From the IMG/VR virus record IMGVR_UViG_2930578203_000001, positions 57,299-121,298 of that record: a stretch of 64,000 nucleotides of DNA; one strand, written 5' to 3'. The notes below the pieces were generated by a model. The model was given only the letters and a program-made list of their open reading frames with translations, was not told the origin of the DNA and made no database searches. Of this stretch, positions 1 through 23,133 are shown piece after piece. Made by a program: the position numbers and the translations under genes. This DNA comes from a virus. Lineage: Duplodnaviria > Caudoviricetes. Numbering within the stretch: position 1 is the stretch's first letter; the number at the start of each line of letters is the position of its first letter.

Positions 1-1593
1 ACCTCCGCCCGCCCTCGCGAGATGGCCTACGAGACGCTGTCCGGCACCTCCAAGGGCGAGATCCTGGCCGCGTTCGGTGTCCCCGAAAGCATCGTCGGCA
101 ACGCCTCCGAGCGGACCTACGCGAACGCTGACCGCGAGGAATACAACTTCTGGGACCACACGGAGCTGCCCCACCTCAACCTGATCGCCTCCGGGTTCGA
201 CCCGGACCTCGATGACGAGTGGATCGTCCGCTTCGACACCTCCAGTGTTCAGGCGTTGGAGTTCCCCCGCCGCCAGGCCCGCGAGGAAGCCCGCAAGGAG
301 TGGGAAGCCGGCCTCATCACGATCGACGAGTACCGGGAGATCGCGGGTCGACCGGCATTCAACGTCCCACAGTCCCGGGCCCTTTGGATCTCTCCGCAGA
401 AGGCCCCCGTACCCGCCAACGACCAGGACGCCGCCGCACTGGGCCTCGGTCCCGACCCGGCCGCGGGCGGAACACCCGGAGCCGCGCCCACCGGTGCCCC
501 GCTCCCGCCGGGCACCGCTCCGGATACCGCGGCCGCCGACGTCGCCGCCGCCCGCGCTCTGGACGCTGGCCCGAGCGCCGCCGCGGATGTCGCCGCAGCG
601 CGGGCGCAGGGCACGCCCCTCGCCCTGCCTGCCGGTTCGACGGCTACCGACGCCGTCGCCGCGGCCCGCGCCGCCACTACCGACAGCGGCCCCGGTGACG
701 CGGCCGCCGACGTCGACCGCGCCCGCAGCACCCAGGACGCTGCACTCCCCGGCGACGACGCCGAGGACGTCGACGCCGCACGCGCCGCGGTCGAGACCAA
801 GGCCCTGCCCGAGGACGACGGATACGAGGTCACTGACGACGACTTCGACGCTCTGTCCATGGCCGTGTCCGCGGCCGTCACCGCGCTCCTCGCACGCCAG
901 GAAGGCGTCATACTCGCCCGGCTCCGCGCCCCGAAGATCCGCAAGTACACGAGGTACTGGGAGCCCGAGAACGACGACGACGTCCGGCACGTCGACGCCG
1001 ATCTCGACCAGGACCGTGTGGTCAGCGCCGCCCGCTGGGCCGAGGAGACCAGCCAATCCCTGACCCCGATCCTTCAGCAGGCGGCCATCGCCACGGCACG
1101 CAAGGTCGGCCAGGCCCTCACCGGCACGGACGAGGTCCCGCCGTCCGCGGCCGCGGCCGCCATCGTCACCGCGGCGTACGCCGGCGAGGCCATCACCGGA
1201 TTCCTCACCGAACTCGCCACCGTCCTCCGCGACGCCCAGCACGACGCCGCTGATGTCGGCGACTTGGCGCACGCCGTCGTCAGGTACTACCACTCCGCAG
1301 AGCCTGTTCTGATCGCCCGCGTCGCCGAGACGTGCGCCGTGGCGACCATCAACGGCGCAGCGGACGCCGCGGCAGAGCACGCCGGTCCGCACGTCGTCCG
1401 GACCTGGGTCACCCGCGCAGACAACCGAGTACGGCCCGCGCACAAGGCCCTCCAGGACAAGACGCTGCCGGTCGGCACCCCGTACACCATCGACGGCGCC
1501 AGCCTCCGCTACCCCGGCGACCCCTTCGCCCCGATCGCCCTCACGATCAACTGCCGCTGTCGCCTGCACTACGCCACCGACTCGAAGGAGTGA
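1..1593 (+). CDS. Portal protein C-terminal part fused to MuF-like (minor head) domain; 5' truncated
   Basis: Frame open from base 1; portal-like 'ILAAFGVPES...TYAN' and 'GLITIDEYRE'; MuF-like 'WVTRADNRVRPAH...YPGDP...INCRC'. Confidence 0.85.
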   Translation, partial: TSARPREMAYETLSGTSKGEILAAFGVPESIVGNASERTYANADREEYNFWDHTELPHLNLIASGFDPDLDDEWIVRFDTSSVQALEFPRRQAREEARKEWEAGLITIDEYREIAGRPAFNVPQSRALWISPQKAPVPANDQDAAALGLGPDPAAGGTPGAAPTGAPLPPGTAPDTAAADVAAARALDAGPSAAADVAAARAQGTPLALPAGSTATDAVAAARAATTDSGPGDAAADVDRARSTQDAALPGDDAEDVDAARAAVETKALPEDDGYEVTDDDFDALSMAVSAAVTALLARQEGVILARLRAPKIRKYTRYWEPENDDDVRHVDADLDQDRVVSAARWAEETSQSLTPILQQAAIATARKVGQALTGTDEVPPSAAAAAIVTAAYAGEAITGFLTELATVLRDAQHDAADVGDLAHAVVRYYHSAEPVLIARVAETCAVATINGAADAAAEHAGPHVVRTWVTRADNRVRPAHKALQDKTLPVGTPYTIDGASLRYPGDPFAPIALTINCRCRLHYATDSKE

Positions 1594-2659: not shown

Positions 2660-2694
2660 CGCGACGCTAACCACCTGTGCTGTGCATGGTCCGC
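2660..2694 (+). promoter_or_regulatory. Phage late-promoter-like motif (copy 1), probably leaderless
   Basis: CGCGACGCTAAC...CATGGTCCGC, ATG at 2698. Confidence 0.65.
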
Positions 2695-2697
2695 GCC

Positions 2698-5600
2698 ATG
2701 CTGAATCGCCCCAATGCACAGGCTGAGTCGCAGGACCTGAGTCGCGACCTCGAGGTCAAGGTCACGCGTCGGCCGTGGAACCCTGCTCTGCACCCCCGGG
2801 ACAGCAAGGGCCGCTTCATCGAGACCGGCGGGGTGGTGAGGACCTGGGGCGGCAAGCTCGCGCGCGTCATCCGCGCGCTCCCGCACGACCGCATCCTCGT
2901 CCAGGACCAGACCGGCCCGGACGAGTTCCGCGGCCGCAGGCACACCACCAGTGCCAAGTGGGTCAGCATGGTCGCGCGCCCCGACGGCAGCGCGCCCACC
3001 GACGACGAAGAGAAGGTCGCCGAAGAGGACGAGCGGCGCACCCAGGACCCGCGCCGCGGCAACGGCGTTGCCCGCGACGACGACGGCGACCCCAACACCC
3101 CGAACGACCCGCACGACCAGGACGACAAGGGCCGCCCGATCGGCGAGGACGACGGCGACGGCCCGGACGACGATGACGACCAGGACGAGCCCGAGGACGG
3201 CGCCCACCCGGTCAACGTCGATGCCCTGCCGAACCAGCAGCACGCCGCCGGGGCCCGGTACGCCGATACCGCCGCCGTCCGCCGCCACTTCATGCAGGTT
3301 GCGGCCCAGCCCGGCACGAGCACGGACATGGCCACCTTCCTGCGCTCGGTGGCACACGACGACGACCTGCGGACCACCTCGTCCGGCCGACTCGTCATCC
3401 TCCTCGACGACCGGCCCGAGCACGCTGGCCGCTGGAACCTCACTGCAACCGGCTCCGGACAGCGCGTCGACGCCGCCGGCACCTTCGCCACCGCCGAGGA
3501 CACCGCCCGATTCGCCGAACACCTCGACAAGACCGCCGTGAACGGTCAGCTCACCAAGTTTCAGCAGCCGTTCGACTTCTCCGACCCGCAACTGGACCGG
3601 GAGGCCCGCGACTGGCGCTCCACCAGGGGCGAGAACATCCAGGGCGCTATCCAGCGGGCCCGTAAGGAGTTCGACGGCACGGACACCGCCCCGGCCTCCC
3701 CGAAGCCCGCACAGGCCCCCTCCGCCGCTGCCGCGGACGGACGGCGCTTCACCACCCTGCAGGACGTCCGCGCGCACTGGACTGACATGCGTACCCGCCT
3801 GAGCCAGGGCGGCCCCGAGACGCAGAACGCCGTGCGGATTCTGGACACCCTGATCAACGACGACCGGCTCAAGCTCGTAGGCCGTGGGCAGCTCGTCACG
3901 CGACGAGACGAAAACGGCGACTGGCTCCTCGTCGCCACCGGCAGCGGCTACACCCTGCGCGGGCAGACCCTGCACCCCCGCTTCGAGTCGCAGGAAGAGG
4001 CACAGCGCTTCGGCCGCTTCCTCGTCGCCTCCGGCATCAAGGGCGAGAACGGCGAGCCGCTGGACATGTCCCGCGGTGCCATCAGCCGGTGGCGCTCCGA
4101 GGACAACCAGTCCTTCAGCGAGGTCGTCGACGAGGCTCTCGCCAAGTGGCAGAGGGAGCGCGGCGGAGACGCCCCGGCCGGACAGAACGCACCAGCGCCG
4201 GACGCGCCGCAGGCCCATGACGAGACCGGCGCCCCTGCGCAGCCGGAGGCGGAACCCGCACCGGCCCCGGCCGTCCCCGAGGGTGCTAAACCCGTCGACG
4301 GGGTCGACGGCTACCACTACGTCAACGACGGCGGATCAATCACCCTGTATGGCCCCGACGGACAGGTCGCCGCGACCAGCGAGCGCGGCTACCCGCCGAA
4401 GGCCAAGATCGACGGCGTCACCGTGCCCGTCCCTCAGTACCCGAAGCAGGGCGCCGCGGTGATGGCCCGGCTGCACCGCGGCGCCCAGAACCCGGACCAG
4501 CGCGACCGGATCACCGCGGCGTGGGTGATGAAGCCCGGCAAGGACGGCAAGCCCGCCAAGCGGGTCATGGTCTTCCGCGGCACCATCAAGGGCGACGAGC
4601 GGGACTACGACGCCGTGGGCTCCACCCGCGCCATCAAGTGGGCCCCGTCCCTGCGGGCGTACTCGACCCAGTCGAACATGACCGAGGCCACGCGGGACGA
4701 GCGGATCTCCGAGGTCCTGTCCAAACTCGCCCGCCAGGGCCGCAACATCCACGTCACCGACGAGACCGCCGCGGGCAGCCCCGATGCACCGGCCAACGCC
4801 GTCGACGAGACCGAGGCCCTGCGCAAGGCCATCGCCAACGCGGACGACCCTCGCCTGTCGCAGTTGAAGTACGAGCGGTGGGCATCGCTCAACCGCACCC
4901 GCTCTGAGGCCAACCGCAAGCGTCTGAACTCTGAGATCGCAATGATCGACGACGAGTTGAAGCGCCGCCGAATCGAGCGGGACGAGGCCGCCGCCCGGGA
5001 CGTCTCCTCGCTCAGCGACGACGACATCGCCAACCGCATCCGCGAGTCACAGGAGGAGCGCGGTACATACGGTGCCCGCAAGGGCCAGGACGCCAACGAC
5101 GTCGAGCGGGCCATCTACAGCGAGCGCCGCCGCCGCTCGCAGGCCCTCGTCGACGACGACACCGACCTGACCACGGCCGCCGAGGACGACCTGGCCAAGG
5201 CCCGCGAGACCATCGCCGAACGCGTCCGCATGCACCAGGCCGCCGGCGACGACCCCGAGGCCGAGCGCACCATGCGCCAGGCCCTGCAGAACCGGCACGA
5301 CGCCATCGTGGGCGAGCAGCAGAGCCGCCATGCCCAGAAGATCGCCGATCGGCCGCCGGTCGCCGACCTCACCGACGAGGAACTGTCGCAGGAGTACAAC
5401 GACTTGCTCCGGCGCGACTTCCGGAAGGCCCCTCCGGAGGCGCAGCAGGTCCTCGAGGGCCGCATGGAGGACGTCAAGCGGGAGCGCCGCGACCGGGAAA
5501 AGCGGGCCATCACCGACCGCGATGCCCCCGAGAACCTGAGCGATGAGGACCTGAAGGCGGAGTACACCGAGCTTCGCCGCACGCGCTCCTCGTACACCGG

Positions 5601-8600
5601 GACCGACGACGTCAAGGCGGCCCGCAAGGAACGCATGGCCGCGCTGGAGGCCGAGCAGAACCGCCGCAGCTCCACGCCGGAGGTCGAGCAGCTCGTCGCC
5701 CGCGTCGACAACCCCGACGACAACGGCATGATCAGCATCGGCGGCGGCAGCGATTACGGCTACGTCGACTACCGGGACCAGACGCACGGGCACACGACCC
5801 GCGAGATCGGGTGGACCTGGGGCAAGCACAGTTGGGGGCACGCAGACACCGCCTATCCCTCCCGCGCCGCAGCTCTGGCAGCGATGGTCCAGGCGTACGA
5901 CAACGACCCCGACACCCGAGGTGAGCGCACCTGGGGCCGTAAGCGCCCCGTGTTCGTGCCGAAGATGTTCGTCGAGCTCTACCAGAACGAGCGTCTTCGC
6001 GACCGGCTCGCCGGCGCCAGCGAGGAACGGCAGTACCTCTACAGCCTGTTCCGGGACCGGTACGGCTGGGACGACGGCGTGAACCCCCTGGTGCCCAGCA
6101 ACAAAAAGGGCCACCACATCAAGGGCCGGAAGCTGTGGGTGCCCGAAGGCCTCCTCGCCGAACTGAACCGGGTGACGGAGGAGCTGTCCCGGGACATGTC
6201 CGTGCGGGCCGCGGACCGGGACGCGGACAGTTCCGACCGCCAGAAGGCCAAGACCCGGCTCGCGTCCATCAACGTGGCTCTGCACGGCATTGAGGCGCAG
6301 CGCGAGTCAGTCCGCAAGAATGGCGGGGACGACGACCGAAAGGTCATCTCCCGCGAGGAGATCGAGGCACAGCAGGCCGCACTCCGTGCAGCGCTGGGAG
6401 GCGACGATGACGAACATGTTCAGTCCGATGGTCCGGGATCACTGGCGGACGTACCGGCCCAAGGAGTGGGCGGCGATGACCGATCCGGAGGCGTTCGTCG
6501 AGACGAAGGCCAGGGAGATCGAGACTCAGATTCTCAAGGCCGAGGAGGCGCTGGAGAAGACCGTTCCGGAGCCGACGGAGTACGAGGAGCAGGTCGGCCG
6601 GCACAAGCAGATCAGGGCGGACGCAACAGCGATGGTCCTGGCGGATCTTCTGCCGGAGCCGGAGCCCGAGGCGGAGAAGGCGCCGGAGCAGACGCCGATG
6701 GAGCAGCACCTGCAGGAGATCAGGGACCTGATGTACGACGCGTAGCGCGGTTCCGGCCTAACCCGGCCGACGCGCCCAAGGGCGCCCGCGCGCGTGCGAC
6801 GGCCAACGTCGAGGCCATCCGCGTCCTCAAGAAGCTGGAGGCCGAGAACCGGCCGGCCACCGACGAGGAGCGCCGCATCCTCGCCCGCTGGTCCGGCTGG
6901 GGCTCGGTACCGATCCTCTTCGCCAACGAGCCGAACGAGAAGGAGCCCCGCTACCAGCAGGGCGGCACCCGGTACGGCAAGTTCGCCAAGGACCACGAGC
7001 GGTGGTCCGAGTACAGCGACATTCGCAGCGAGCTGCAGCGCGTGCTCACGCCTGTGGAGTTCCGGCAGGCATCCCGCGGCGTGCTGTCCATGCACTACAC
7101 GCCGCAGCCCATCGCCGAGGCGATGTGGGAAGGCCTTCGGGCATTCGGCTTCGACCGCGGCGACGTCCTTGAAGCCGGCTCCGGCGCGGGCACTTTCTTC
7201 GGCGTCGCTCCGGACGGCGCCCGCCTGACCGGCGTCGAACTGGACCCGACCACGGCCCGGATCGCTCAGGCGATTTACCCGCATGCCAACGTCCTCAACG
7301 AGTCTTTCGCGGAGACCGACGCCCAGCCGGGCACCTTTGACGCCGCCATCGGCAACGTGCCCTTCGCCCGGGTCCCGTTCGATGACAAGCGGTACCCGGC
7401 AGAGAGCCTTCACAACGGCTTCGTCACCAAGGAGATCGCCCTCGTCCGGCCCGGCGGCATCACCGCCGTCATCACCTCCCGCCAGACCCTCGACTCCAAG
7501 GGCGACAAGGCCCGCCGCCAGATGGCCAAGTACGGCGACCTGGTCGGCGCCGTGCGCCTGCCCTCCGGCGTCTTCACCGACGCCGGCACCGGGGTCACCA
7601 CCGACGTCCTCGTGTTCCGCCGCCGCGAGGACGGCACCGAGCCGGCCGACACGTCATGGCTGGACGCCCCTGAGCGGGACATCAACGGCACCGCACACCA
7701 CATCAACGCCTACTTCGACGAGCACCCCGAGCACATCCTCGGCACGCTGACCATGCAGTCCGGCCCGTACGGGCCCGAGGTGACCGTCAAGGGCGACCCG
7801 GCCAAGGCCGCCGAGCAGCTTCGAGCCGCGCTCGACGACATCGCCACCAAGGCGAAGGCCGACGGCCGCGGCTACGAGCCGCACCCCGACGGCGACAACC
7901 GGCCTCCGGTACAGCTCCAGACGGCCCGGGAGAAGCACGCGAACGACTGGACCGGCCGCCTCTACGAGGGCGATGACGGCCAGTTTTACCAGCACGTCAA
8001 CGGTGCCGAACCGGTCCTGCTGGAGCCCGCCGACGGCAACACCGCCCAGCTTCGCGGCCTCATGCAGCTCCGCGACGTCGCCGCCGAACTGCGCGAACTG
8101 GACCGGAAGAACGACGAGGAGGAGCGCGCCGAGGCTCTGCGCGCCCAACTCCGCGACCTGCACGCCGCCTACGTCGCCGAGTACGGCCCCCTGTCCAAGC
8201 CGGGCCAGCACCGCACCCAGGGCGGCCGCCCGACGGCGTGGGGCTACTTCCGGGCCGACCCGGACGCCGCGGCAGTCCTCGCTCTGGAACGGTGGGACGC
8301 CAACAAGGGCGAACCCGTCCTCTCCCGCGTCTTCACCGAGCGCGCCGCGGCCCGTCGACAGCCGCTCTCCTCGACCAACGATCCGAAGGCGGCCCTGGCC
8401 GCGGTCGTCGCCGCCAAGGGCGAAGTGGACCTCGGCGAGATCGCCCGGCTTCTCGACGTCACCCCGCAGGAAGCGGTGAAGCGCCTCGGCAACGAGGTCT
8501 TCACCGACCCTGAGACCGGCCGCCTCGAGCTGGCCAGCGCCTACCTGTCCGGCGCCGTCCGCGACAAGCTCGACGCCGCCCGCAAGGCCGCCGAGCGCGA

Positions 8601-11600
8601 CCCGGCGTATGCGGTCAACGTGGCCGCGCTGGAGGCCGTTCAGCCGCCGGACCGCACCATCGGCCAGTTCACCCCGGAGATGGGCGCCCACTGGACGCCG
8701 CCGGAACTTCTACAGGGCTTCCTGCGCGAGTACCTGGGCGACCGCACACTCCGTGTCGCGCATGACGACCGGTACGGCTGGATTCTCAACACCGGCCGCG
8801 TGCCCGAGGCCAACAACGTCATGTACGGCGTTCCGGCCGTCGAGCCCGACCCGGATAACGGCATCAAGGGCAACAAGGGCAAGAACGCCGTGGAGATCGC
8901 CCGCGCGATCCTCGGCTTCGGCTCGCTGACCGTCTACGAGGACGACAAGCGCAAGGAAGTCGACGAGGCGACCTCCCGTCTGATCCGGCAGAAGGCCGAC
9001 CAGATGCGGGCCGAGTTCGCCAAGTACGCCACGGCGAACGCTGATCGGCTGAGCGTCCTCACCGACTCGTACAACCGCATCATGAACGGGCACATCGTCC
9101 GTTCGTACGAGGGCATGTCGCCCACGCTGGAGGGCTTCACCCCCGACCGGAACCCCCACCCCTGGCAGCGTTCCGGCGCGGCCCGGATGCAGTTCGAGCG
9201 GGGCGTGATCCTCGCCCACGAGGTGGGCCTCGGTAAGACGTCCACGCTCGTCATGGGTACCCAGGCCCTCAAGGCGTCCGGGCAGATCGAGAAGCCCATG
9301 GCCGTGGTGCCGAACCACCTCGCGCGCCAGTGGTACAACGAGGCCCGGTGCCTGTACCCGAACGCCGATATCCACCTGATCACCTCGGCGGACCTGGCCG
9401 GCGACCGGCGCGGCAGCACGCTGGAGTGGCTGCGCGCCAACAGGCCGGATCTGGTGATCTTCACTGAAGAGGCGTTCGGCTCGATCAAGATGAGCCCGGA
9501 GGCTCAGGACGAGTACGAGTTCCGGGAGCTGGAGGCGCTGCGCGAGCAGCTTGACCGCCAGTACGAGGACGCCGACAACCCGAACCACCCGTTCATCGTC
9601 GCGAAGATCGAGCAGCGCATTGCGACGGTCAGCAAGAACATCAACAAGAACGCCGCCCCGATGCGGCGACCGGGTGAGACGTACTGGGACGACCTCGGAT
9701 TCGACTACTTCGTCGTCGACGAGGCTCACCGGTACAAGGGCGTTGGCTTCCGCTCCAAGGAGGGTGGCGGCGACAAGGCGTCCATCCGCGGCGTCGACCT
9801 GCATCAGAAGACGAGCGACCTGCACCGCCGCCGTCAGGGCCGTGCCACGATCACGCTCGCCACCGGTACGCCGCTGTCGAACAGCATCAGTGAGCAGTTC
9901 ACCATGCTGATGTTCGCGGCGCCGTGGGTGCTGGACGCCTACAAGGCGGGCGCCCCCGACCTGTGGGCCAACACCTTCGGTCGCAAGACCCTGCGCATCG
10001 AGAACGCCCCCGACGGCTCCGGCCTGCGCGTCGTGGAGCGGTTCTCCGAGTTCCACAACAAGCGCGCCATGAAGACCATGTGGGGCCTGGTCGCGGACAC
10101 CAAGCGCGGTGACGACGTCGGCATTCCCCGTCCGAAGCTCAGGGGCGGCAAGCCGAACCTGATCATGGTCGACGCGACGCCCGACCAGAAGAAGCGTCTG
10201 AAGGGGCTCGTCGCCCGCGGTCGCGCGATCCACAACGGTGAGGTCGACCGCCACCAGGACAACATGCTCGCGGTGTCCAACGAGGGCACCAGCGTGGCCC
10301 TCGACCCGCGGCTCATCGACGCCAAGGCCCTGGCCGGCAACAAGCTGAAGGCCGTCGCGGACCGGCACATCGAGCGCTACCACCAGCACAAGGACCGGCT
10401 CTATCCGGTCGCCCTCGACAGCCTCGTCAACCACCCGGTTCCGGGTGCTCTCCAGATGATCTTCCTGAACGAAGGCGTCCCGGGAGGAAAGAACAAGGGC
10501 AACTTCGACGCTTACGCCGAACTCAAGCGGCTCATGGTCGCGGGCGGCATCCCCGCGGACAAGATCGCCTTCGTCCAGGACGCCAAGAAGTCCGGCAAGC
10601 CCGAGGACATGACGGAGCTGTTCCGGAAGGCCCGCGAAGGCGAAATCGCGGTCCTCATCGGCTCCAGCGCCGTCGCGGGTACGGGCATGAACGCCCAGGA
10701 CCGCATGATCTCCCTCTCGCACGTCGACCTCGACTGGGGCGCCGCGCAGATGGAGCAGCGCAACGGCCGCATCCTGCGGTACGGCAACCTGAACCCCGAA
10801 GTCGAGATCGACATCTACGCGACCAAGGGCTCCATGGACGGCTGGAAGGCCGGATTCGTCGCAGCCAAGGCCGAGGGCTTGATCGACATTCAGCGGCCGG
10901 AGCCGGAAGACGGCGACTCCAGCGACGTTGTCCAGGAGATCGACGGCGCCGAGTTCGACTACGAGACGATGGAAGCCGAGATCGGCGGCAACCCCTTCAT
11001 GAGCCAGCTCATGAAGGCGAAGCGCCGTCTCAAGGATCTGGAGATCGACCAGCACAACGAGGCCGCCGAGCGTATCCGCCGCGCCGAAGCCCTCGATGCG
11101 CTGCGCCAGGAATCCCAGGCCACCCGCGACGGCATCCACCGCCGCGAGCAGGCCCTGCCCCGCATCCAGGAGGCCGACGACCGGTTCCGTATGACCATTG
11201 GCGGCTCCCCGTACGGCGAGCGCTCCGACGCCGGCAAGGCCCTGCACCGCCAGATCACCTCCCGCCTCCTGGAGCACAACCGCGAGGGCCTGAGTGACTG
11301 GCACATCCTTGGCCAGTTCCGCGGCTTGGACTTCGGTGTCCGCACCGAGAAGACAGCGGACGGCAAGCTCGTCGCGCACGTCGGCTTCCCCGACCTGCGG
11401 CAGTCCGACTTCGAGCGGACCGTGGAGGACTTGCAGAAGAAGGGCGCCGGGTCGGGCATGATCACCCGCCTCGGCAACGCCCTCGACAAGGCGCCCGCGT
11501 TGCAGGAGTCGGACCGGGCCAAGGTGCCGGAGCTGGACGAGCAGATAGCCCTGCTCCAGTCCGCGCACGCGGCCGCAGACCTCACCCCGCAGATCGACCA

Positions 11601-14600
11601 CGCTCGCAAGCGGTCGAACCTGCTCGAGGAGATCGTCGCCCGCGTCACCAACCTGGACGCGAAGCCGGAGATCGACCCCGACGAACTCGACAAGGAGCGG
11701 TACAAGAACAAGGACGACCGCGAGAAGATCGCCAAGGGGCGGCGCGAGGAACGCGAGCCGCTGCAGGCCGCCGTCGACGAGGCCGTCGCGAACCTGCACC
11801 GCTGGGACGAGGAGAACCCGGCACCGGAGCAGGACGACACGGTCCGCCTCTCCGAGGACGAGGTGCGCGAAGCCCTCGCCCGCCTCAGCCCGGAGCCCAG
11901 CACCACCCCGCAGCCGGACGCCCCGGAGACCAGCGACCGCAGTTCCGAGGACGCCGACACCGACGTCGACGAGCCGAACACCGCCGAGACGGAGACACCT
12001 GAGACCACCGGCGGGGGCAGCAGCGACGAGCCGCCGGCCGACACGCCAGCCGCGGACGACACCGGCGCCCAGAACGACGGCCAGGACCAGGACGACGTCG
12101 TTCGCCTCTCCCAGGACGAGGTGAACGACACCCTCGCCAGCATCCAGCCGGACGCCGACACGACCGCCACCGACGAGCCGGACGAGCCCCTGCGGTACGC
12201 GTGGGACAAGCCCGAGGACTTCGTCACCCTGACCATGCCGGCCGCACTCGCCGACTTCCTCAACGTCGACGAGACCGCCGCCATGGAGGACCCCGACACC
12301 CGGAAGGCCCTCAAGGAAGCCACGCCAGGCCGCCGCGGCACACTCCAGGTGACCGGCCCGATCGAGGTACACCGCGCCCTCCTCCAGTGGGCATGGACGC
12401 TCGAGGGCGGCGAAGGCCTTGAGTCCGACCCCAGCGAAGTCCGGGCCTACAAGGCGTACGCCAAGCGCATCGACGAGGCAGACGCCGACCTGCAGCGCCG
12501 TCGCGCCGAGCGGGAGGCCGCGGCCGCCGCGGACACCGATGAGAACGACAGCCCGGACGCCGACAGCACGAACGACGGCGGCAGCGACGAGCCGCCGACC
12601 GATGCCCCCAGCACGGCTGAGCCGGACGGCGAGGACGACCAGGACCAGAGCACCGACGAAGACACGGAGGCCAGCGACACTGTCACCCTGACTCCGGACG
12701 AGGTGTCCGACCAGCTCGACGCTGTACGCCCGGAGGGGTCCAAGGCTCCGTCCTCGATGGACGATGGCGAGATCCGCGACGAGATCGTCGACCTGATGGG
12801 CCGGGAGATGGCGGATGAGCTGTCCGGCGCGGACCACACCCGCCTGCAGGTCCTGCTAGCGGAGGAGGCCCGCCGTGCCGGCCGGGCCCCGAAGCAGGAG
12901 CCCAAGCCGAAGAGGACGACCGAGGAGCCCGGCGGACTCTTCGACGTCGACCAGCCCACCACCCAGCAGCCGAGCAGCGCCGCCGACGTCGACAACCCCG
13001 AGGACCAGCCCGACGACCTCTTCGGCACGCCGGACATGATCGCCGACGCCGAAGGCCGCAGCACCGAGGGCCTGCGCCCGGCGCGCATGCGCAACGCCGC
13101 CGACCTGAAGCAGGGTGACCGGTACACCGACGCAGACGGCCGCACGCACACCGTGTCCGAGCCGCCGGTCAAGACGCCTCGCGGCCGGACCCGCATCGTC
13201 ACCGACGACGGCGAGGAGCGCTTCTACAACGCCGACGCCCAGGTGCGCCTGCGCGACCCCGACGAGGAGATCCCCGAGAACGAGACCGACGAGCGGTCCG
13301 CCGACGACGATGCCGACAACACCCCGGATGTCGACGAACCGGAGACCTCCGAGCCGGACGTCGACGAACCGGAAGCCACCTCCGACAGCAGCAGCACCAA
13401 GGACCGCGCCGACCGCATGACCGGCCTCATCGACCAGGCCACCGACGGGGCAGGCGGTGACGAGCTGCCCGAGGTCAGCGAGGTCCGTGATGCGTTGGGC
13501 AGGGCCGAGGACTCCGACGACCCGGACGCCGAGCTCCGTTCCGCCGCCGACCGGCTCGACGACCTCGCCGAGATGTACGAGCTGGGAGGCCCCGAGGGAG
13601 AACGCGCCGCAGACCTGTTCCGGCAGGCCGCCCGCATCGCGAGGGGTGAGGACGAGGACGATCGCCGCGGCGACGACAACGACCGCAACGAGGACGACAG
13701 CGAAGCCCCCGACGCTACGAACCAGGACTCCGAAGAGGACCAGGACGACGACGAGGAACGCCAGCAGCGTCGGAACGGGGACGCGGACAGCGACGCCGCC
13801 GACCCGGACGGCGCCCCCGACGGAGGCGGCGCCGGTACCCCGGACACTCCTGCCGACAACGAGGACGAGGCCGGCAACCCCGACGATGCGCCCGACAACT
13901 CCGACGACGAGCAGGACGAGCCGGAGGCCGAGAAAGACGACGAGCAGGACGACCGCAACCGGCGTCGTCGCCGGCGTCGCCGCAACGGCGGTGGCGGCAG
14001 CGGCGGTCCCGGTGGCCCCGGCGGGCCCGGCCTGCCGCACCTGAACCTGCCCGACCTCAACACGCCGGACGCCGGAGGCGCCGACGGCAATGGGGACGGC
14101 GAAGACGGCCGCGGCACGCGCGACCGCGGGCGGACCCCTATGCGGCACCGCGACGTCGATTCGCTGCGCCGCGCCTGGAAGAACGGCGATGGGCTCACCC
14201 CTGCCGAGGAAACTCCGCAGCGGCGCGAGGCCCTGTCACAGGCGGCCGACCGGGACGGCTTGGCTCTGTCCCCGGGTGGGGGCCTGGTGACGTGGCCCGA
14301 ACAGCAGGAAGACGGCACCACCTTGTGGCGCTTCGCCCAGGCCCGCAACGGCGCCAACCTGACCGGATTGACCCTGACGACCGAAGACCCCGAAGAGGCC
14401 CGCGCGCTCGCAGGCCGCTTCGAGGAGATCACCGGTCGCGACGGGCAGCCCTTCGACTGGCAGCAGGCGTGGGGCCCGAGCACCGTGGGGCAGTGGCGCG
14501 ACGGGGAGGGCCGCAACCTGCAGCGGGCACTCCAGGCCGTCCTCGACGACTTCGAGCAGCAGCGGGCCGCCGCCGCCCAGCCGGAGCCGGCGCCGGAACG

Positions 14601-17600
14601 GAGGGCGCTGCCGGGCGACCTCACCGGCCTGGAAGACGACGAGCTGGTCGACGCGTGGAGCAACGACCTCAGCGACGAGGACCAGAAGCGCCTTATGGCG
14701 GAGATGGACCGCCGCGACGGCTACACCGACCAGCGCGTTCGTGACGTGCTGCCGGACACCCCGCCGGCCGACGCCGAAGAGGCCGAGCGCCGCGCGAAGG
14801 CCGTCGACGAGGCCCTCGGCTTTGGGGGCGCCGACGTCCCGCGCGTGCGCCGAACCCGTGAGGACATCATCCGTGCGGAGTTCGCCGACTTCGACGAAGC
14901 CCGCTACCAGGCCGCCATCGACGCCACGAACGGCTACTTCTACGCCCGGAAGTACAAGTACGGCAGCGGCATCAACGAACGAGACTTGTTCTCCGGTGGT
15001 GCACTCGCGAAGCTCAACCTCTGGGAGAAGTACGCCAGCGAGGAACTGAAGGACTGGTACAAGGCCAACGGCGGTCGCATCACGTACAACCAGTTCCGGC
15101 AGACCTACCGGGACAACGACCGCCAGGACCGGCAGCAGTTCGAGGAGGAGCAGCGCCGCCAGGCGGAAGCCGGGCAGACCGAGGAGCCCACCACCCCGGA
15201 GACCGAGCCGTACGACCCGGCCACGCCGCGCTTCGCGGACGAGGCGACCCTTCGGGACCACATCCGCAGCGGGCAGCTCGACGAGGTGCCCGAGGAGCAG
15301 CGTGGAGACGTGCCCTCAGCCGAGGAACGCGCGGAGATCGCCGATGCCGAGAGCACCCAGCTCTCCGACGGCGGCCGACTCCTCATCTACGGCAACGAGG
15401 CCGGTCGCGCCGGCAGTCGCAGCGGGCAGCGGTTCGACGTGGCCCTTCCGGGCAGCATGCAGCCCCTGTTCCGAAGCGGCTTCCACAGCGCCGCGGAAGC
15501 CCGCCGCTACGCCAGCGTCCTCGACGGCATCAAGGACACGGACGGCAACGCGTTCCCGTGGGATGCCCCCGACGTCGCCGACCGCGCCCGCGCGTTCCGG
15601 ACCGCCGACGGCAACCGCCTGTTCGACGAGATCACGGAACGCCTGTACGGCTTCAACGACCTCTACGAGCCGTGGAACAGCGACCGCGGCCAGGCATTGC
15701 ACCACCGGACGTGGAGCCAGCAGGAAGCCGACTGGAACACCCGCGAGGAGGAAGCCGGTTACTCGATCCCCATCGACCTGACGGACATCCGTCCCGGTGA
15801 CGAGATCAGCTTCCCCGTGGCCACGAGCCGCGGACAGAACACGCGGCCGCAGGACGAGTACGTGGGAACCGTGCACGCCACGGTGAGCGGCGAGGGAGAG
15901 CCCTTCCAGTACCGCTCGCAGTTCTCCGCCTTCGGGAACCAGCAGCTCTACCGGTTCCCGGCCGAAGGCTCCTGGATCAACCAGTACGGGGAGCACACCG
16001 AGATCGACGAGGCGTTCCCGAACCTGGGTGTCGTCCGCCGCCGCCCGCGGCCCGACGAGGTGTCCAGCACGGCTGACGACCGCGACGACCGTTCGTCCCG
16101 CGCGGACACCCCGCAGGCGGAGACGCCGGGCACCGCGACGCCCCCCGCGCGCCAGCAGCCCGCCCCGGACCGCGCTCCTGCAGAGCCGGAGCCCGCCGCG
16201 CCCTCGGCGCCGGCCGACCAACCGCAAGGTGAACCCGATCCCGTGGGCGGTCAGCCCGCACACTGGGCGCGCGTCCGCGACCTGGTGCAGGGCGACATGG
16301 TCCGTATGGAGGGCCGCACCAGTAACGGCCGCGCCATCACGCGGTCCGGCTACGTCTTCACCGGGCCCGTCGACGTGGAGGTCACCCGCAACGGCCGCAC
16401 GGAGCGGATGCTGCGCACGTACGTCACGGAGAACCCGGACGGCACCGGGAAGCGTGGCAACGTCTTCACGCCGCTGAACGCCACCGCGGCGCGGGCCGAG
16501 ACGCCCGACGACGTGGTGCCCGGGTCGCCGACCAGCGGCGCTCAGAGCGCCGTTCAGGCGGGCAGCCTCCCCGACCTGGTCCCCGCGGACCGGAACGGCC
16601 GGGGCTTGTTCCCGGGCAGCACCGTCACCGGCGTTGACGGGCTGCGTACCCGTGAGGGCACCGTCACGGGCGCCACCAGCACCACGGTGTCGGTGCGCTG
16701 GGACAACGACGACACCGCCGACGGACTCTCTCCGAACACCCTCACCGTGACCGGTGGCGACCGCCCCGACGGCTGGACCTCATCCGGGCAGCGCGTGACC
16801 CCGCGGCACATCGTGACCGACACCGAGGGCGCTCTCCTCGGACCGGTCGACGAGGTCAACGGCGACCGCGTCACCATCACCACCGCCGAAAGCACCATCA
16901 CACGGAGCGCCGGAGACCTCCGCGTCGCCGGCGAAGTACGCGACGACGCCCCGGGCACCGACCCCGTCACCGGCATCGACGACCCGGCGGCCGCGGACCT
17001 CAAGGAGGACGACGTCCTGGTCCTGGACCTCGACGGCACGCCCACCACCGTGGCGGTCACCGGTATCCACCGCGAAGGCGACCGCGTCACCATCGACTTC
17101 GCCGACACCACCACAGGCGAGATCGGCCAGATCGACGTGGACGCCTCCCAGGTCATCCCCCGGGCCCAGGGCGCCGACGACACTCCGCCCGACCTCGGGC
17201 CGGACGACGCCCCGGACGCCCCGGACGACCTGACCGTGCACGAGCCGCCGCACCGCGTCGAACCCGTCACCGGCCCGACCGTCGACCCCGACCTAACGAT
17301 GGGCGACCGAGACGTCATCGGTGACCTCGCCGACGGCCCGGACGACGACCCCGACGCCCAGCAGGCCGCCGTACGCATCACGGCCGACCTGCCCGTCCCC
17401 CCGGAACAGGCCGCCGCACTCGCCGCGCAACTCCGCGATTCCGCCGACCCCTCGACCCCGGAGGGCCGCGCCGCCCTGCGCGCCGCCAACCACCTGGACC
17501 GGGCCATCGGCCGGACCCCTCCGCCCGAGCTCAACCGGCCGCGGCCGTCGAACGCCGCACAGGTCGCGGAAGACGACACGATCGCCATACCCGACAACCA

Positions 17601-20988: not shown

Positions 20989-22908
20989 GTGCCGAGCGCT
21001 CCACCCACCAGATCGTCACACCCGAACACCCTGCGAGGCACCAGCCGGGCAATCTACGCCGTCACTGGCGTGGTCGACGAGGTCAACGACCTCATCGTCC
21101 CCGGCGCCTTCGCTCACACCCTGGCCACCCGTCGCGTCAAGGCCGTATGGCACCACGAATGGAAGGACGCCGTCGGCGTCGTCCTGCACGTCGAGGAGTG
21201 GCTACCCGGCGACCCCAGGTTCGCCGACGTCCCCGACTGGCCCGCCGAGGCCGGCGCCCTGGTCGCAACCGTCGAGTACAACCGGCGTACCAGCAAGGGC
21301 CGCGACACCTACGAGCAGGTCAAGCAGTGGTACGAGCACGGCGAAGCCGCGTTCTCCATCGGCTACCGCGTGCCCGCCGACGGAGCCACCCGCCGCGGTG
21401 ACGGCGTCCGCGTCATCCACCGCCTCGACCTGTTCGAAGTGAGCCCCGTCCTGCACGGCGCGCACCCCATGACCCGGGCGCTCGAGGTCAAGGCTGCGGC
21501 CAACCCCGGCATGGAGTACAAGGCGACGCCCAACGTCATCGAACTCGACGCAGGGACGGACGAGGACCGCATCAAGGTCGCCGGACTCGTCCTCAAGGCC
21601 GAGGACACCGGCCGCGTCCTGCTCATCCAGCGCGCCCTCGACGACGAGGACCCGGATGCCGGAACCTGGGAGTTCCCCGGCGGGCACCTGGAGAAGGACG
21701 AAGACGCGCTCGCCGCAGCGCTGCGCGAGTGGCAGGAGGAAACCGGCGCCGAACTCCCCGGATCGGCAAGCGTTGTCGGCTCCTGGACTTCCCCGAACGG
21801 CATCTACCGAGGGTTCGTCGCCGTAGTCCCCGGCGAGTCCCACATACCGCTGAACCGGCCCCCCAGCGAACGACCGGTGACCAACCCCGACGACCCCCAG
21901 GGCGAAGCGCCAGAGGTCACCGCCTGGTGGCCGATCACCGCCCTCCCCGACATGTCCCTGCTCCGGCCTGCATGCCGTGAGACCCCCTGGTCCCTCCTGG
22001 CAGGCGCCACCCTGCCGCAGGGCCCGGCGGCCAAGAAGCCCAGAGCCGAGGCCGAGCAGTTCGCCGCCGGCGTCATGAACACCTACGCCGCTCTCGGCAC
22101 CACGGAAGCGAAGTCCGCGCGCGCCGCAGTGGCCTCCGCCCGCTCCGTCCTGCCGCGCATCGAGCACAAATCCGCCCGCTCCACGGTCGCCGAGGCCAAG
22201 AGCCATCCCACGCCCCTTCCGGAGGCTTCTGTGATGTCCCCCAACCCCCTGCTCGAGTCCCAAGAGCAGTTCCGTGCCCGTCTCTCGGACAGCGTCCGCG
22301 AACTCCTCGACCAGGACGGCCAGACCTGGACGTGCATTGAGGGCACCTACCCGGACCGCGTCATCGTCTCCGTGCACAGCGAGGACGAGCGGCGCAGCAG
22401 CCACTACGCCATCCCGTACACGGCCACCGCGAACGGCGAGATCAGCCTCGGCACCCCTAAGTCCGTCGAACTCGCCACCGTCGTACTCCCGGAGGGCGCC
22501 AGCGCGCAGCGCACGGCCACCGACGAGGAAGACGTCGACGCCCGCGTCGTGCAGCCCACCGTGGAAGCCCTCGCCGACGCCACCGCTCGCATCAACACCA
22601 CCGAGGCCGACCCGGACCAACTCACGGGCGTACGGGACAAGGTGCGCACGCTGATCGCCGCCCTGTCCGCGAAGGGCCTCGACACCGCCGACGACACCGA
22701 AGCCCCGAAGGGCGCCCCCCGGGACCCCACGGCCGGCCCCATCGGCATGGACCTGTGGGACGAGTACTCGTTCAACGACGACGAGGACGAGGACGAAGTG
22801 CCCATGGAGGACGCTCCGCCGCCCGCCGAGGCGGACGTCGACGACGAGGACACGGTCCGGCTCGACGAGGACAAAGTGAAGTCGGCGCTCGCCATGATGC
22901 GGAGCTGA
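20989..22908 (+). CDS. HK97-type prohead protease fused to a NUDIX hydrolase and an acidic scaffold-like tail
   Basis: VVDEVNDLIVPGAF, WHH, FSIGY, LFEVSPVLHGAHP; intact Nudix box GGHLEKDEDALAAALREWQEETG. Confidence 0.9.
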   Translation: MPSAPPTRSSHPNTLRGTSRAIYAVTGVVDEVNDLIVPGAFAHTLATRRVKAVWHHEWKDAVGVVLHVEEWLPGDPRFADVPDWPAEAGALVATVEYNRRTSKGRDTYEQVKQWYEHGEAAFSIGYRVPADGATRRGDGVRVIHRLDLFEVSPVLHGAHPMTRALEVKAAANPGMEYKATPNVIELDAGTDEDRIKVAGLVLKAEDTGRVLLIQRALDDEDPDAGTWEFPGGHLEKDEDALAAALREWQEETGAELPGSASVVGSWTSPNGIYRGFVAVVPGESHIPLNRPPSERPVTNPDDPQGEAPEVTAWWPITALPDMSLLRPACRETPWSLLAGATLPQGPAAKKPRAEAEQFAAGVMNTYAALGTTEAKSARAAVASARSVLPRIEHKSARSTVAEAKSHPTPLPEASVMSPNPLLESQEQFRARLSDSVRELLDQDGQTWTCIEGTYPDRVIVSVHSEDERRSSHYAIPYTATANGEISLGTPKSVELATVVLPEGASAQRTATDEEDVDARVVQPTVEALADATARINTTEADPDQLTGVRDKVRTLIAALSAKGLDTADDTEAPKGAPRDPTAGPIGMDLWDEYSFNDDEDEDEVPMEDAPPPAEADVDDEDTVRLDEDKVKSALAMMRS

Positions 22909-23017
22909 GTCGCACGACCCGGTCTCACCCCTGCTCCCGCACCCTGTGCGCGTCATCCCGAAAAACCGCAGGTCAAACCTATGCGCTGCCCGCTCTTGAC
23001 TCCCTGAGCGGGCAGCG

Positions 23018-23052
23018 CGCGACGTTAACCCCTCTCTCCCTCTTCACTCCCG
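23018..23052 (+). promoter_or_regulatory. Late-promoter-like motif (copy 4)
   Basis: CGCGACGTTAAC...TTCACTCCCG upstream of the capsid gene. Confidence 0.6.
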
Positions 23053-23133
23053 CCTGGCGTTGAGGCTGTCCCGGTGCTGGCCGGGCGGAGCGACGCACGT
23101 CAACCGCACCCCAGCACCAGGGAGAGAGCAGCA

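What the first reader, a model, noticed from the sequence alone, without database searches (positions are those of the whole stretch)
6407..6745. Overprinted TnpV-like gene fully nested inside the 17-kb giant ORF, directly before the MTase domain
Seen: in the giant frame this stretch reads as G/D/R-rich low-complexity sequence with many A/T-ending codons. The +1 frame has a GGGAGG RBS, an ATG, GC-rich third positions and a plausible 112-aa helical protein (HWRTYRPKEWAAMTDPEAF...YEEQVGRHKQIRADATAMVL). The giant frame nevertheless has no stop. Known: TnpV-like small genes occur next to MTase-helicase genes in mobile elements. Inference: an ancestral tnpV-MTase-helicase cassette was fused to an upstream domain array by reading through tnpV in another frame, leaving a dual-coding region. 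The small protein may be a partner or chaperone of the giant enzyme.
Basis: partly seen in the sequence, partly recalled or inferred. Interest (0 to 1): 0.78.

Follow-up and report, generated by a model that had tools for sequence, protein, structure and literature searches.

The report
Hidden gene inside giant antirestriction gene
A small TnpV-like protein gene lies entirely inside a 17-kb phage gene for a giant DarB-like DNA methylase-helicase, read in a different frame, and the same arrangement recurs in related genes of many plasmids and phages, where annotation misses or splits it.

Summary
ATG 6407 to TAG 6745 (+1 frame) is a 112-aa ORF with a GGGAGG Shine-Dalgarno site. It lies inside the stop-free 5686-aa ORF 2677-19737. 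This is the only stretch of the 17 kb where the codon-position GC signal moves to the other frame.

The nested frame is a real gene:
- It has 1306 relatives in a profile search, and some pass the Pfam TnpV threshold.
- Pooled dN/dS is 0.41 in the nested frame and 1.33 in the giant frame.
- Start codon and SD are conserved.
- The AlphaFold model is confidently helical.

The giant frame is kept open by selection. No stop occurs in 54 of 54 unique Streptomyces-type sequences, where about 73 were expected.

The giant protein is a DarB-like polyvalent protein (LPD36, adenine methylase, SNF2 helicase), encoded between the portal and prohead protease genes.

The read-through is not a Streptomyces fusion. 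In 15 of 15 other actinobacterial plasmids the helicase ORF also starts upstream of the TnpV-like gene and reads through it, although the annotation splits them there. Similar nested ORFs precede LPD36 in an alphaproteobacterial plasmid and in Klebsiella, Erwinia, Burkholderia and Ralstonia phages.

Expression and the small protein's function remain untested.

The parts
2677..19737 (+). Giant ORF (5686 aa): polyvalent DarB-like protein, made of an N-terminal array, a linker, LPD36, an adenine MTase, an SNF2 helicase and a long C-terminal region
   Evidence: The ORF has no stop. Third-position GC is about 0.9 throughout except at 6350-6750. Pfam finds SNF2-rel_dom, ResIII and Helicase_C. Residues from 6745-10800 match 'DarB-like antirestriction' phage proteins over 99-100% of their length.
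6396..6401 (+). Shine-Dalgarno GGGAGG of the nested gene, 5 nt before its ATG
   Evidence: Read directly. The SD/anti-SD duplex is at or below -8 kcal/mol in 51 of 54 unique homologous loci, against 5% of background positions.
6407..6745 (+). Nested TnpV-like gene, 112 aa, in the +1 frame of the giant ORF
   Evidence: Searches give the ORF. Nested-frame third-position GC is 0.91. Homologs. Pooled dN/dS is 0.41. The AF2 model has pLDDT 85.6 and five helices.
6400..6744 (+). Giant-frame reading of the same DNA: a G/D/R/A-rich, low-complexity linker
   Evidence: Translation. Giant-frame dN/dS is 1.33 here, against 0.13-0.45 in the flanks. Stop avoidance is shown.
6745..7074 (+). LPD36-like helical region, starting at the nested stop codon (ARFRPNPADAP...ARWSGWGS; the GWGS motif is at 6895-6906)
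   Evidence: Sequence. It fits the description of LPD36 (GxG[GAS] motif, N-terminal to the MTase) in PMC5512222 (passages). No profile for LPD36 was available to test it.
7165..7524 (+). Adenine methyltransferase core (NVPF at 7354-7365)
   Evidence: Weak Pfam hits to Methyltransf_25 and Eco57I, both below cut-off. The P1/P7 DarB methylase part matches at E 2e-20. N204-F207 are invariant columns in A5.
9193..10785 (+). SNF2/SF2 helicase core
   Evidence: Pfam: SNF2-rel_dom 31.5 bits (cut-off 24.9), ResIII 26.9 bits (cut-off 22.5), Helicase_C 21.7 bits (cut-off 23.5).
1..1593 (+). Portal protein gene (5' end cut by the window), upstream neighbour
   Evidence: PHROGs portal protein, E 3e-40.
20989..24423 (+). 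Head maturation protease (20989-22908) and major head protein (23074-24423), downstream neighbours
   Evidence: PHROGs phrog_80 at 3e-17 and phrog_10 at 6.7e-36.

Best explanation
This is a genuine same-strand overprinted gene pair.

The 17-kb gene lies between the portal and prohead-protease genes of a siphophage-like prophage. It encodes one giant polyvalent, DarB-like protein: an N-terminal array, a disordered linker, LPD36, an N6-adenine methylase, an SNF2 helicase and a C-terminal array. By analogy with DarB-like proteins it is probably packaged and delivered with the DNA to counter restriction (inferred).

The DNA that encodes the linker just before LPD36 also encodes, in the +1 frame, a 112-aa all-helical TnpV-family protein. 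That protein is translated from its own SD and ATG (inferred from conserved signals). The nested frame dictates the sequence: it carries the codon usage and the purifying selection. The giant frame is only required to stay free of stops and yields a G/D/R-rich spacer.

The arrangement is ancient. It accompanies the LPD36-methylase-helicase module in actinobacterial plasmids and prophages and in at least some proteobacterial plasmids and phages.

The most likely role of the small protein is a dedicated accessory factor of the methylase-helicase module, such as an assembly or packaging helper or a regulator of its activity in the producing cell. This role is inferred only from the invariant position of the gene, with odds of about 0.5. 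The confidence given below refers to the dual-coding claim.
For: The nested frame is coding:
- Third-position GC is 0.91.
- tblastn finds 11 plasmid records. Profile searches find 446 proteins and 1306 representatives at E<=1e-3, of which 907 are at E<=1e-10.
- Pfam TnpV is the only recurrent family, hit by 14 of 66 members at E<=0.01. P0004 (31.1 bits), P0044 (28.6) and the L067 protein (27.4) pass the 27-bit cut-off.
- The nearest ESM Atlas clusters are 'TnpV protein family'.
- The AF2 model has pLDDT 85.6.
- Pooled over 24 independent pairs, dN/dS is 0.41 in the nested frame and 1.33 in the giant frame; nested is lower in 23 of 24 pairs (single pairs).

Translation signals:
- Start codons are ATG in 46 and GTG in 8 of 54 unique sequences. 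The SD duplex is <= -8 kcal/mol in 51 of 54, against 5% of background positions.

The giant frame is kept open:
- It is stop-free across the nested gene in 54 of 54 unique Streptomyces-type sequences (57 loci). None of 248 T-ending nested codons precedes an AA/AG/GA codon, out of 1763 such positions, so about 73 stops were expected.
- In 15 of 15 other actinobacterial plasmid loci the -1 frame spans the whole small gene and the +1 frame never does. There, none of 90 T-ending codons is in a dangerous position, with about 25 stops expected.
- No in-frame start codon lies between the nested stop and LPD36 in the window.

The giant protein is DarB-like:
-. The neighbours are portal, protease and capsid genes.

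Beyond Actinomycetota and high GC:
- L067 at 47% GC.
- A Brucella pseudintermedia plasmid.
- Metagenome loci L084 and L086.
- Phages SopranoGao, PEp14, Bcep22 and Gerry, each with the GC-position flip.
Against: - There is no direct evidence that either product is made. No RNA run was available, and no proteomics or ribosome profiling could be consulted.
- Nested-frame constraint is moderate (dN/dS 0.41). Differences by nested codon position are 175/168/262, which is not the steep skew of a strongly constrained gene.
- The window's own protein gives no Pfam TnpV hit.
- L011 carries a 24-codon deletion that removes the nested C-terminus.
- The arrangement is not universal. It is absent in L083 and L085, in P1 darB and in a Streptococcus phage.
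- Homology of the Bcep22/Gerry-type nested ORFs is weak (HMM E 1e-3 to 0.03; hhalign probability 10-13%).
- The fold has no informative match, so the function is open.
Confidence: 0.85

Rival explanations
1. The 17-kb ORF is an artefact of high GC content. On this view there are really three genes (an upstream gene, tnpV, and the MTase-helicase), and the alternative frame across tnpV is merely open by chance.
For: In this DNA an open -1 frame over a 112-codon gene is not rare: P is 0.22-0.43 per sequence. PGAP annotates TnpV plus a separate helicase in many actinobacterial plasmids.
Against: No stop occurs in 54 of 54 plus 15 of 15 sequences, where about 73 and about 25 were expected. The upstream part has no stop codon of its own. 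LPD36 has no in-frame start after the nested stop in the window, and PGAP's internal starts cut off the conserved LPD36 N-terminus. A conserved N-terminal motif lies upstream in the same frame in 10 of 15 loci and in 0 control frames. The arrangement also holds at 47% and 57% GC.
Confidence: 0.04
2. The nested frame is a fossil. A former tnpV gene is now only read in the giant frame and is no longer expressed in this element.
For: dN/dS of 0.41 is only moderate. L011 lost the C-terminal 24 codons. The window's protein scores below the Pfam threshold.
Against: The ORF is intact with start and SD in 54 of 54 unique sequences, across clades as low as 30-38% identical. Nested-frame third-position GC stays at 0.89-0.98 in all of them. 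dN/dS is lower in the nested frame in 23 of 24 pairs. A dead frame would have drifted toward giant-frame codon usage and acquired stops.
Confidence: 0.06
3. The two frames are joined by programmed ribosomal frameshifting. One version is a -1 shift at the end of the TnpV-like frame, giving a TnpV-LPD36-MTase-helicase isoform. The other is a +1 shift from the giant frame into the TnpV-like frame. In either case the nested gene would not be a free-standing product.
For: The relative frame is fixed: LPD36 is in the -1 frame of TnpV in every locus. The nested stop abuts LPD36. SD-like sequences can stimulate frameshifting (general knowledge).
Against: Canonical X XXY YYZ heptamers in the nested frame occur in only 6 of 69 unique sequences, at no conserved position. 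The nested frame is closed only a few codons upstream of the start in some loci (L031, L045, L047). A conserved SD plus ATG/GTG is the simpler reading. No in-frame TnpV fusion of 316-2000 aa was found (weak evidence by that tool's own warning), and the best 150 representatives are all 90-280 aa.
Confidence: 0.05

Closest known systems
Embedded Rz1 within Rz (phage spanin genes), and from recall comS within srfAB and phiX174 genes B within A and E within D
   Same: In each case a small gene with its own start lies wholly inside a larger same-strand gene in another frame. The two products are functionally linked. Embedded Rz1 in Bcep22-like phages is mentioned in PMC9144972 (passages).
   Different: Here the host gene is a 17-kb polyvalent protein gene. 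The host frame uses the overlap only as a low-complexity linker. The overlap is 100-190 codons long and is conserved across phyla. comS and phiX174 are recalled and were not checked here.
DarB of phage P1/P7 and DarB-like gp75 of Burkholderia phage Bcep22 (the LPD36-MTase-SWI2/SNF2 module of polyvalent proteins, Iyer et al. 2017, PMC5512222)
   Same: The order LPD36-like region, adenine methylase, SNF2 helicase is the same. The module matches DarB-like phage proteins at about 30% identity over its full length, and the P1/P7 DarB methylase part at E 2e-20. The gene sits in the head-morphogenesis region. DarB-like gp69 of phage JC1 is virion-associated by mass spectrometry (PMC9144972, passage).
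   Different: P1 darB shows no nested ORF and starts only about 50 codons before its methylase core. Antirestriction activity and packaging of the window's protein are not shown. The searchable text of PMC5512222 contains 'TnpV', 'overlapping' and 'frameshift' zero times.
TnpV of Tn4451 (Pfam PF14198)
   Same: Both are small helical proteins of mobile elements. Members of the window's family pass the Pfam threshold, and PGAP names many actinobacterial homologs 'TnpV protein'.
   Different: The window's protein is a divergent member below the threshold. Classical TnpV is a free-standing gene beside a serine recombinase and was postulated to be Xis-like (PMC3158075, passage). Whether classical TnpV genes of Firmicutes are ever nested was not tested.

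Membership tests
TnpV (Pfam PF14198) | Whole-protein score at or above the curated 27-bit cut-off | tested here: not met
   The window's protein has no TnpV hit at E<=1. Relatives do pass: P0004 31.1 bits, P0044 28.6 bits, and the L067 nested protein 27.4 bits. 14 of 66 family members hit at E<=0.01, and 5 of 10 hit weakly. The window's protein is therefore a divergent relative by transitive homology, not a scored member.
TnpV (Pfam PF14198) | Small protein (about 110 aa) encoded on mobile elements | tested here: met
   The protein has 112 aa. It lies in a prophage. Homologs are on 11 and 65 plasmid records.
TnpV (Pfam PF14198) | Role in excision (postulated Xis-like) | not testable with these tools
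   The role is only a postulate in the literature (PMC3158075, passage). The AF2 model is all-helical and has no informative fold match.
DarB-like polyvalent protein (LPD36-MTase-SWI2/SNF2 module) | SF2/SNF2 helicase fused C-terminal to the methylase | tested here: met
   SNF2-rel_dom scores 31.5 bits (cut-off 24.9) and ResIII 26.9 bits (cut-off 22.5), both downstream of the methylase region.
DarB-like polyvalent protein (LPD36-MTase-SWI2/SNF2 module) | EcoKI/TaqI-like adenine methylase with an NPP(Y/F)-type motif | tested here: inconclusive
   The Pfam methylase hits are below cut-off. NVPF is invariant in A5. The region matches the P1/P7 DarB methylase part at E 2e-20 and annotated DNA methylases.
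DarB-like polyvalent protein (LPD36-MTase-SWI2/SNF2 module) | LPD36: a helical domain with a GxG[GAS] motif N-terminal to the methylase | tested here: inconclusive
   GWGS sits inside a conserved block of about 60 aa that starts at the nested stop. This fits the description in PMC5512222. No LPD36 profile was available, and Pfam gave no hit.
DarB-like polyvalent protein (LPD36-MTase-SWI2/SNF2 module) | Full-length similarity to proteins annotated as DarB-like | tested here: met
   136 phage records match, and 78 of them cover at least 80% of the 1352-aa query. Bcep22 gp75 matches at E 2e-146 with 100% coverage.
DarB-like polyvalent protein (LPD36-MTase-SWI2/SNF2 module) | Packaged in the virion and protects incoming DNA from restriction | not testable with these tools
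   Only the gene position between the portal and protease genes speaks to this.
Same-strand overprinted (nested, out-of-frame) gene pair | Both frames open, with independent initiation signals for the inner gene | tested here: met
Same-strand overprinted (nested, out-of-frame) gene pair | Selection acting on both frames | tested here: met
   The inner frame has dN/dS 0.41. The outer frame shows stop avoidance, with 0 stops observed against about 73 and about 25 expected.
Same-strand overprinted (nested, out-of-frame) gene pair | Both products demonstrably made | not testable with these tools
   No RNA holder was listed.

The most novel reading that the evidence does not exclude
The TnpV family as a whole may be the obligate, overprinted companion of the LPD36-methylase-SNF2 (DarB-like) antirestriction module in phages and conjugative elements of several phyla.

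On this reading the small protein controls the giant enzyme. It might hold the enzyme inactive, or escort it for packaging or transfer in the producing cell. The overlap itself could set the ratio of the two products, because ribosomes traversing the giant ORF would occlude the internal SD.

If so, a hidden gene sits unannotated in well-studied DarB-like genes such as Bcep22 gp75. 'TnpV' would then be a misnomer for an antirestriction accessory protein.
Probability: 0.25. Interest if true: 0.85.

Novelty: new variant of a known kind. Interest (0 to 1): 0.78.

Why it matters
Well-supported out-of-frame nested genes in bacteria and their mobile elements are few, and annotation pipelines exclude them by rule. 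This one is 100-190 codons long. It shows selection in both frames, and it recurs in more than 70 independent loci across actinobacterial orders and in some proteobacterial phages and plasmids.

Three consequences follow.
- It adds an unrecognised component to DarB-like antirestriction and polyvalent proteins. Any model of how these giant proteins are made, packaged or regulated has to account for it.
- It exposes a systematic annotation error. PGAP either omits the small gene or calls it 'TnpV protein' and truncates the helicase gene at an internal start, which cuts off LPD36.
- It gives a clean natural case of the prediction that the younger frame of an overprint is a disordered, low-complexity sequence.

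Tried and rejected
Binding is untested.
- The look-up of sequencing runs, kind rna: no RNA holder was listed.
- Fold searches of the AF2 model: Foldseek against the PDB gave no match at E<=0.001. VIA-align wide gave a best Z of 6.2, with generic helical hairpins only. A PDB sequence search with profile A3 found nothing below E 0.44.
- NCBIfam gave no family for the nested proteins. tblastn of the window's nested protein against the phage collection gave no match.
- A search with PF14198 in the window's own record and in 14 control genomes found nothing anywhere. I therefore could not fetch classical Firmicutes TnpV loci to test whether they are nested.
- The search for related loci failed with alignments A1 and A4 because no conserved stretch was available. 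It worked with A2, and with A1 on the viral contigs.
- The 'longer' protein search found no fused forms of 316-2000 aa. The tool's own warning makes this weak evidence.
- Programmed -1 frameshifting: no conserved slippery heptamer was found.
- tblastn with the Brucella-plasmid nested protein found only itself.
- Literature: I searched 'TnpV' (38 papers, 20 listed by title and abstract start); 'TnpV' plus 'helicase' (2 papers, listing only); 'overprinting' / 'nested gene' / 'Streptomyces' / 'plasmid' (31 papers, 10 listed); and 'Bcep22' plus 'DarB' (7 papers). I read passages of PMC5512222, PMC9144972 and PMC3158075. None describes a gene nested in a DarB-like or MTase-helicase gene. Subscription journals and paper supplements were not searchable.
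Full report
**Observation.** The window is part of a 121,298-base IMG/VR 'provirus' record.
- ORF 2677-19737 (+, 5686 aa) has no stop.
GGGAGG lies at 6396-6401, 5 nt upstream of the ATG.
- Codon-position GC shows the giant frame's third-position GC at 0.9-1.0 everywhere except about 6350-6750. There it falls to 0.3-0.5, and the position that is third in the nested frame rises to 0.9. No other stretch of the 17 kb behaves so.
- The giant frame reads the stretch as G/D/R/A-rich low complexity.
On this sequence alone an open giant frame is not improbable: P is 0.22 by synonymous resampling and 0.042 by codon-order shuffling.

**The nested frame is a real gene.**
- tblastn found homologs on 11 plasmids.
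- Pattern scans found 12 viral contigs and 38 species-representative genomes of Streptomyces, Kitasatospora, Actinacidiphila and Dactylosporangium.
- A profile of the family found 446 small proteins in the 5.8-billion set and 1306 representatives at E<=1e-3 in the 1.84-billion set. The best 150 of those are all 90-280 aa.
- Across 57 Streptomyces-type loci (54 unique nested sequences), the ORF is intact in all. The start is ATG in 46 and GTG in 8. The SD/anti-SD duplex is at or below -8 kcal/mol in 51 of 54, against 5% of background positions.
- Pooled over 24 independent pairs, dN/dS is 0.41 in the nested frame and 1.33 in the giant frame. Nested is lower in 23 of 24 pairs. The giant frame's flanks give 0.13-0.45.
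- AlphaFold2 with a 26-row alignment gives a confident model (pLDDT 85.6) with helices at 6-16, 18-23, 27-52, 59-81 and 97-111.

**Is it TnpV?**
- The window's protein has no Pfam TnpV hit.
- Weak, colinear TnpV hits occur in 5 of 10 relatives and in 14 of 66 relatives at E<=0.01.
- Three relatives pass the curated cut-off: P0004, P0044 and the L067 protein.
- PGAP names many actinobacterial homologs 'TnpV protein', and the nearest ESM Atlas clusters carry that name.
- It is therefore a divergent TnpV-family protein.
- TnpV's function is unknown. An Xis-like role in Tn4451 excision was only postulated (PMC3158075, passage).
- Fold searches gave nothing informative.

**The giant frame is kept open.**
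- In all 54 unique Streptomyces-type sequences the giant frame has no stop across the nested gene. In 53 of them it belongs to an ORF of at least 3.9 kb. L031 is a decayed remnant of 921 nt, and L003 is a remnant beside an IS5 element.
- A stop in the giant frame needs a nested codon ending in T followed by a codon starting AA, AG or GA. Of 248 T-ending codons, none precedes one of the 1763 such codons, so about 73 stops were expected.
- The upstream part has no stop of its own. No in-frame ATG, GTG or TTG lies between the nested stop and the conserved block that follows it.

**What the giant protein is.**
- The nested stop abuts a conserved block (ARFRPNPADAP...ARWSGWGS). This block fits the description of LPD36, the helical domain with a GxG[GAS] motif that precedes the adenine methylase in polyvalent proteins (PMC5512222, passages).
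- Next comes a methylase region (NVPF motif; Pfam hits below cut-off) and then SNF2/ResIII/Helicase_C.
- Residues from 6745-10800 match 136 phage records. Proteins annotated 'DarB-like antirestriction' in Bcep22, Ralstonia and Klebsiella phages match at about 30% identity over 99-100% of the query, and the methylase part of P1/P7 DarB matches at E 2e-20.
- The gene sits between the portal gene and the head protease and major head protein genes. Tape-measure and tail genes follow downstream.
- DarB-like gp69 of phage JC1 is virion-associated by mass spectrometry (PMC9144972, passage).
- Packaging and antirestriction activity of the window's protein are inferred, not shown.

- In Nocardioides, Arthrobacter and Ruania plasmids, PGAP annotates a free small gene followed by a 'helicase'. 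Those helicase starts cut off the conserved LPD36 N-terminus.
- The LPD36 frame is the -1 frame of the small gene, as in the window. It is open through the whole small gene, from a start upstream of it.
- I fetched 12 more plasmid loci out of the 65 records that tblastn found with P0113. I chose them for taxonomic spread: Micrococcales, Propionibacteriales, Micromonosporales, Streptosporangiales, Pseudonocardiales and Mycobacteriales.
- In 15 of 15 loci the -1 frame spans the entire small gene, and the +1 frame does so in 0 of 15. None of 90 T-ending codons is in a stop-making position, with about 25 stops expected.
- In 10 of 15 loci a motif of the type GQLSFD..LW lies in that frame upstream of the small gene, with no hit in the control frames. 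The pattern was derived post hoc.
- In six of the 15 loci the long frame ends within 0.1-2 kb after the small gene (L009, L070, L076, L077, L079, L081), so those copies may be decaying.
- Some depositors did annotate the long ORF across the small gene as 'helicase' or 'putative helicase' (H17, H20).
- In a sample of 401 Actinomycetota genomes, 6 had a hit. One of these is an unpublished genome that I did not analyse. All 5 loci of the four further published genomes show the same nesting.
- The read-through is therefore ancestral. Streptomyces-type elements added different N-terminal domains.

**Beyond high GC and beyond the phylum.**
- L067, from a 47% GC locus, has a nested protein that passes the Pfam TnpV cut-off. 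It lies inside an ORF that continues into LPD36-MTase.
- A Brucella pseudintermedia plasmid (57% GC) has a homolog with an ATG in the +1 frame of an annotated 14.9-kb 'PLxRFG domain' CDS, directly before LPD36.
- Of four metagenome loci, two are nested (L084, L086) and two are not (L083, L085).
- I examined seven DarB-like phage genes:

| Phage | Result |
|---|---|
| Klebsiella phage SopranoGao | +1-frame ORF ending at LPD36; family HMM hit, E 4.5e-7 in a search of 97 ORF pieces; GC-position flip |
| Erwinia phage PEp14 | same; E 2e-4 to 8e-4 |
| Burkholderia phage Bcep22 | same; E 1e-3 to 8e-3 |
| Ralstonia phage Gerry | same; E 0.026 |
| Helicobacter ganmani prophage (38% GC) | 144-codon +1 ORF at the same place, no HMM hit |
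| P1 | none |
| Streptococcus phage | none |

- hhalign links the actinobacterial family to the SopranoGao/L067 type at 95.5% probability, but only over 29 columns. The Bcep22/Gerry type scores only 10-13%. For those two phages the case rests mainly on position, frame and composition.

**Mechanism.**
- Shown: two overlapping frames, each carrying its own selection signature. The inner gene has its own initiation signals. The position immediately 5' of LPD36 is fixed.
- Inferred: one giant polypeptide whose linker is the out-of-frame reading of the small gene; independent translation of the small protein; and a functional link between the small protein and the methylase-helicase module.
- Programmed frameshifting is unlikely, because slippery heptamers occur in only 6 of 69 sequences and are not conserved in position.
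- Binding could not be tested.

**Novelty.** In the searchable literature I found no description of a gene nested in a DarB-like or MTase-helicase gene. Out-of-frame embedded genes are a known kind (Rz/Rz1). This is a new, unusually long and widely conserved variant in a different gene family.

Noticed in passing
L008 5019-5447, L009 1505-2185, L010 4986-5714, and L070, L072, L075, L078, L080: PGAP splits the locus into 'TnpV protein' or 'hypothetical protein' plus a helicase gene. The annotated helicase start lies inside or after LPD36, so the conserved LPD36 N-terminus and the upstream N-terminal peptide are left unannotated. Other depositors annotate only the long ORF.
   Followed up: yes
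L010 4805-4997, L009 1342-1504, L071, L074, L080 (giant frame upstream of the small gene): There is a conserved short N-terminal peptide of the helicase ORF: basic residues after the Met, then a GQLSFD..LW-like motif, present twice in Arthrobacter and Leifsonia. Its function is unknown. It could be a transfer or packaging signal.
   Followed up: partly
L011 4974-5246: An in-frame 72-nt deletion removes the last 24 codons of the nested gene but keeps the giant frame open. The C-terminal helix may be dispensable, or the nested gene may be decaying in that plasmid.
   Followed up: no
L091 1998-2429 (Helicobacter ganmani prophage, 38% GC): A 144-codon open +1 frame lies inside a giant ORF directly before LPD36, in low-GC DNA. 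It has no HMM hit, but it ends with an 'LLP.ESEEWE'-like segment that recalls the 'EEWIFLPSEED' end of L067-type TnpV.
   Followed up: partly
L065 and L069 (genome G297, contig 7, about 600 nt apart): Two TnpV-like ORFs sit in tandem, and each has the -1 frame open across it.
   Followed up: no
window 2677-6300 and 14500-17000 (giant protein): A repeated domain appears at least twice in the N-terminal part and again in the C-terminal part (segments like '...DENGDWLLVATGSGYTL...' and '...GRWNLTATGSGQRV...'). The C-terminal 2078 aa have no Pfam family.
   Followed up: no
window about 13600-14100 (giant protein, acidic tract followed by RRRRRRRNGGGGSGGPGGPGGPG): An extreme low-complexity acidic, poly-Arg and poly-Gly tract lies inside the giant ORF. 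Third-position GC stays high there, so it is in the coding frame.
   Followed up: no
L005 and L011 (Streptomyces plasmids), L077 (Thermobifida): The same giant-gene family sits directly after a type IV coupling protein gene instead of a phage portal gene. The module therefore serves both phage-type and conjugative-type elements.
   Followed up: partly
window 20989-22905: The ORF after the giant gene combines head-maturation-protease and NUDIX-hydrolase PHROG hits in one 639-aa product.
   Followed up: no
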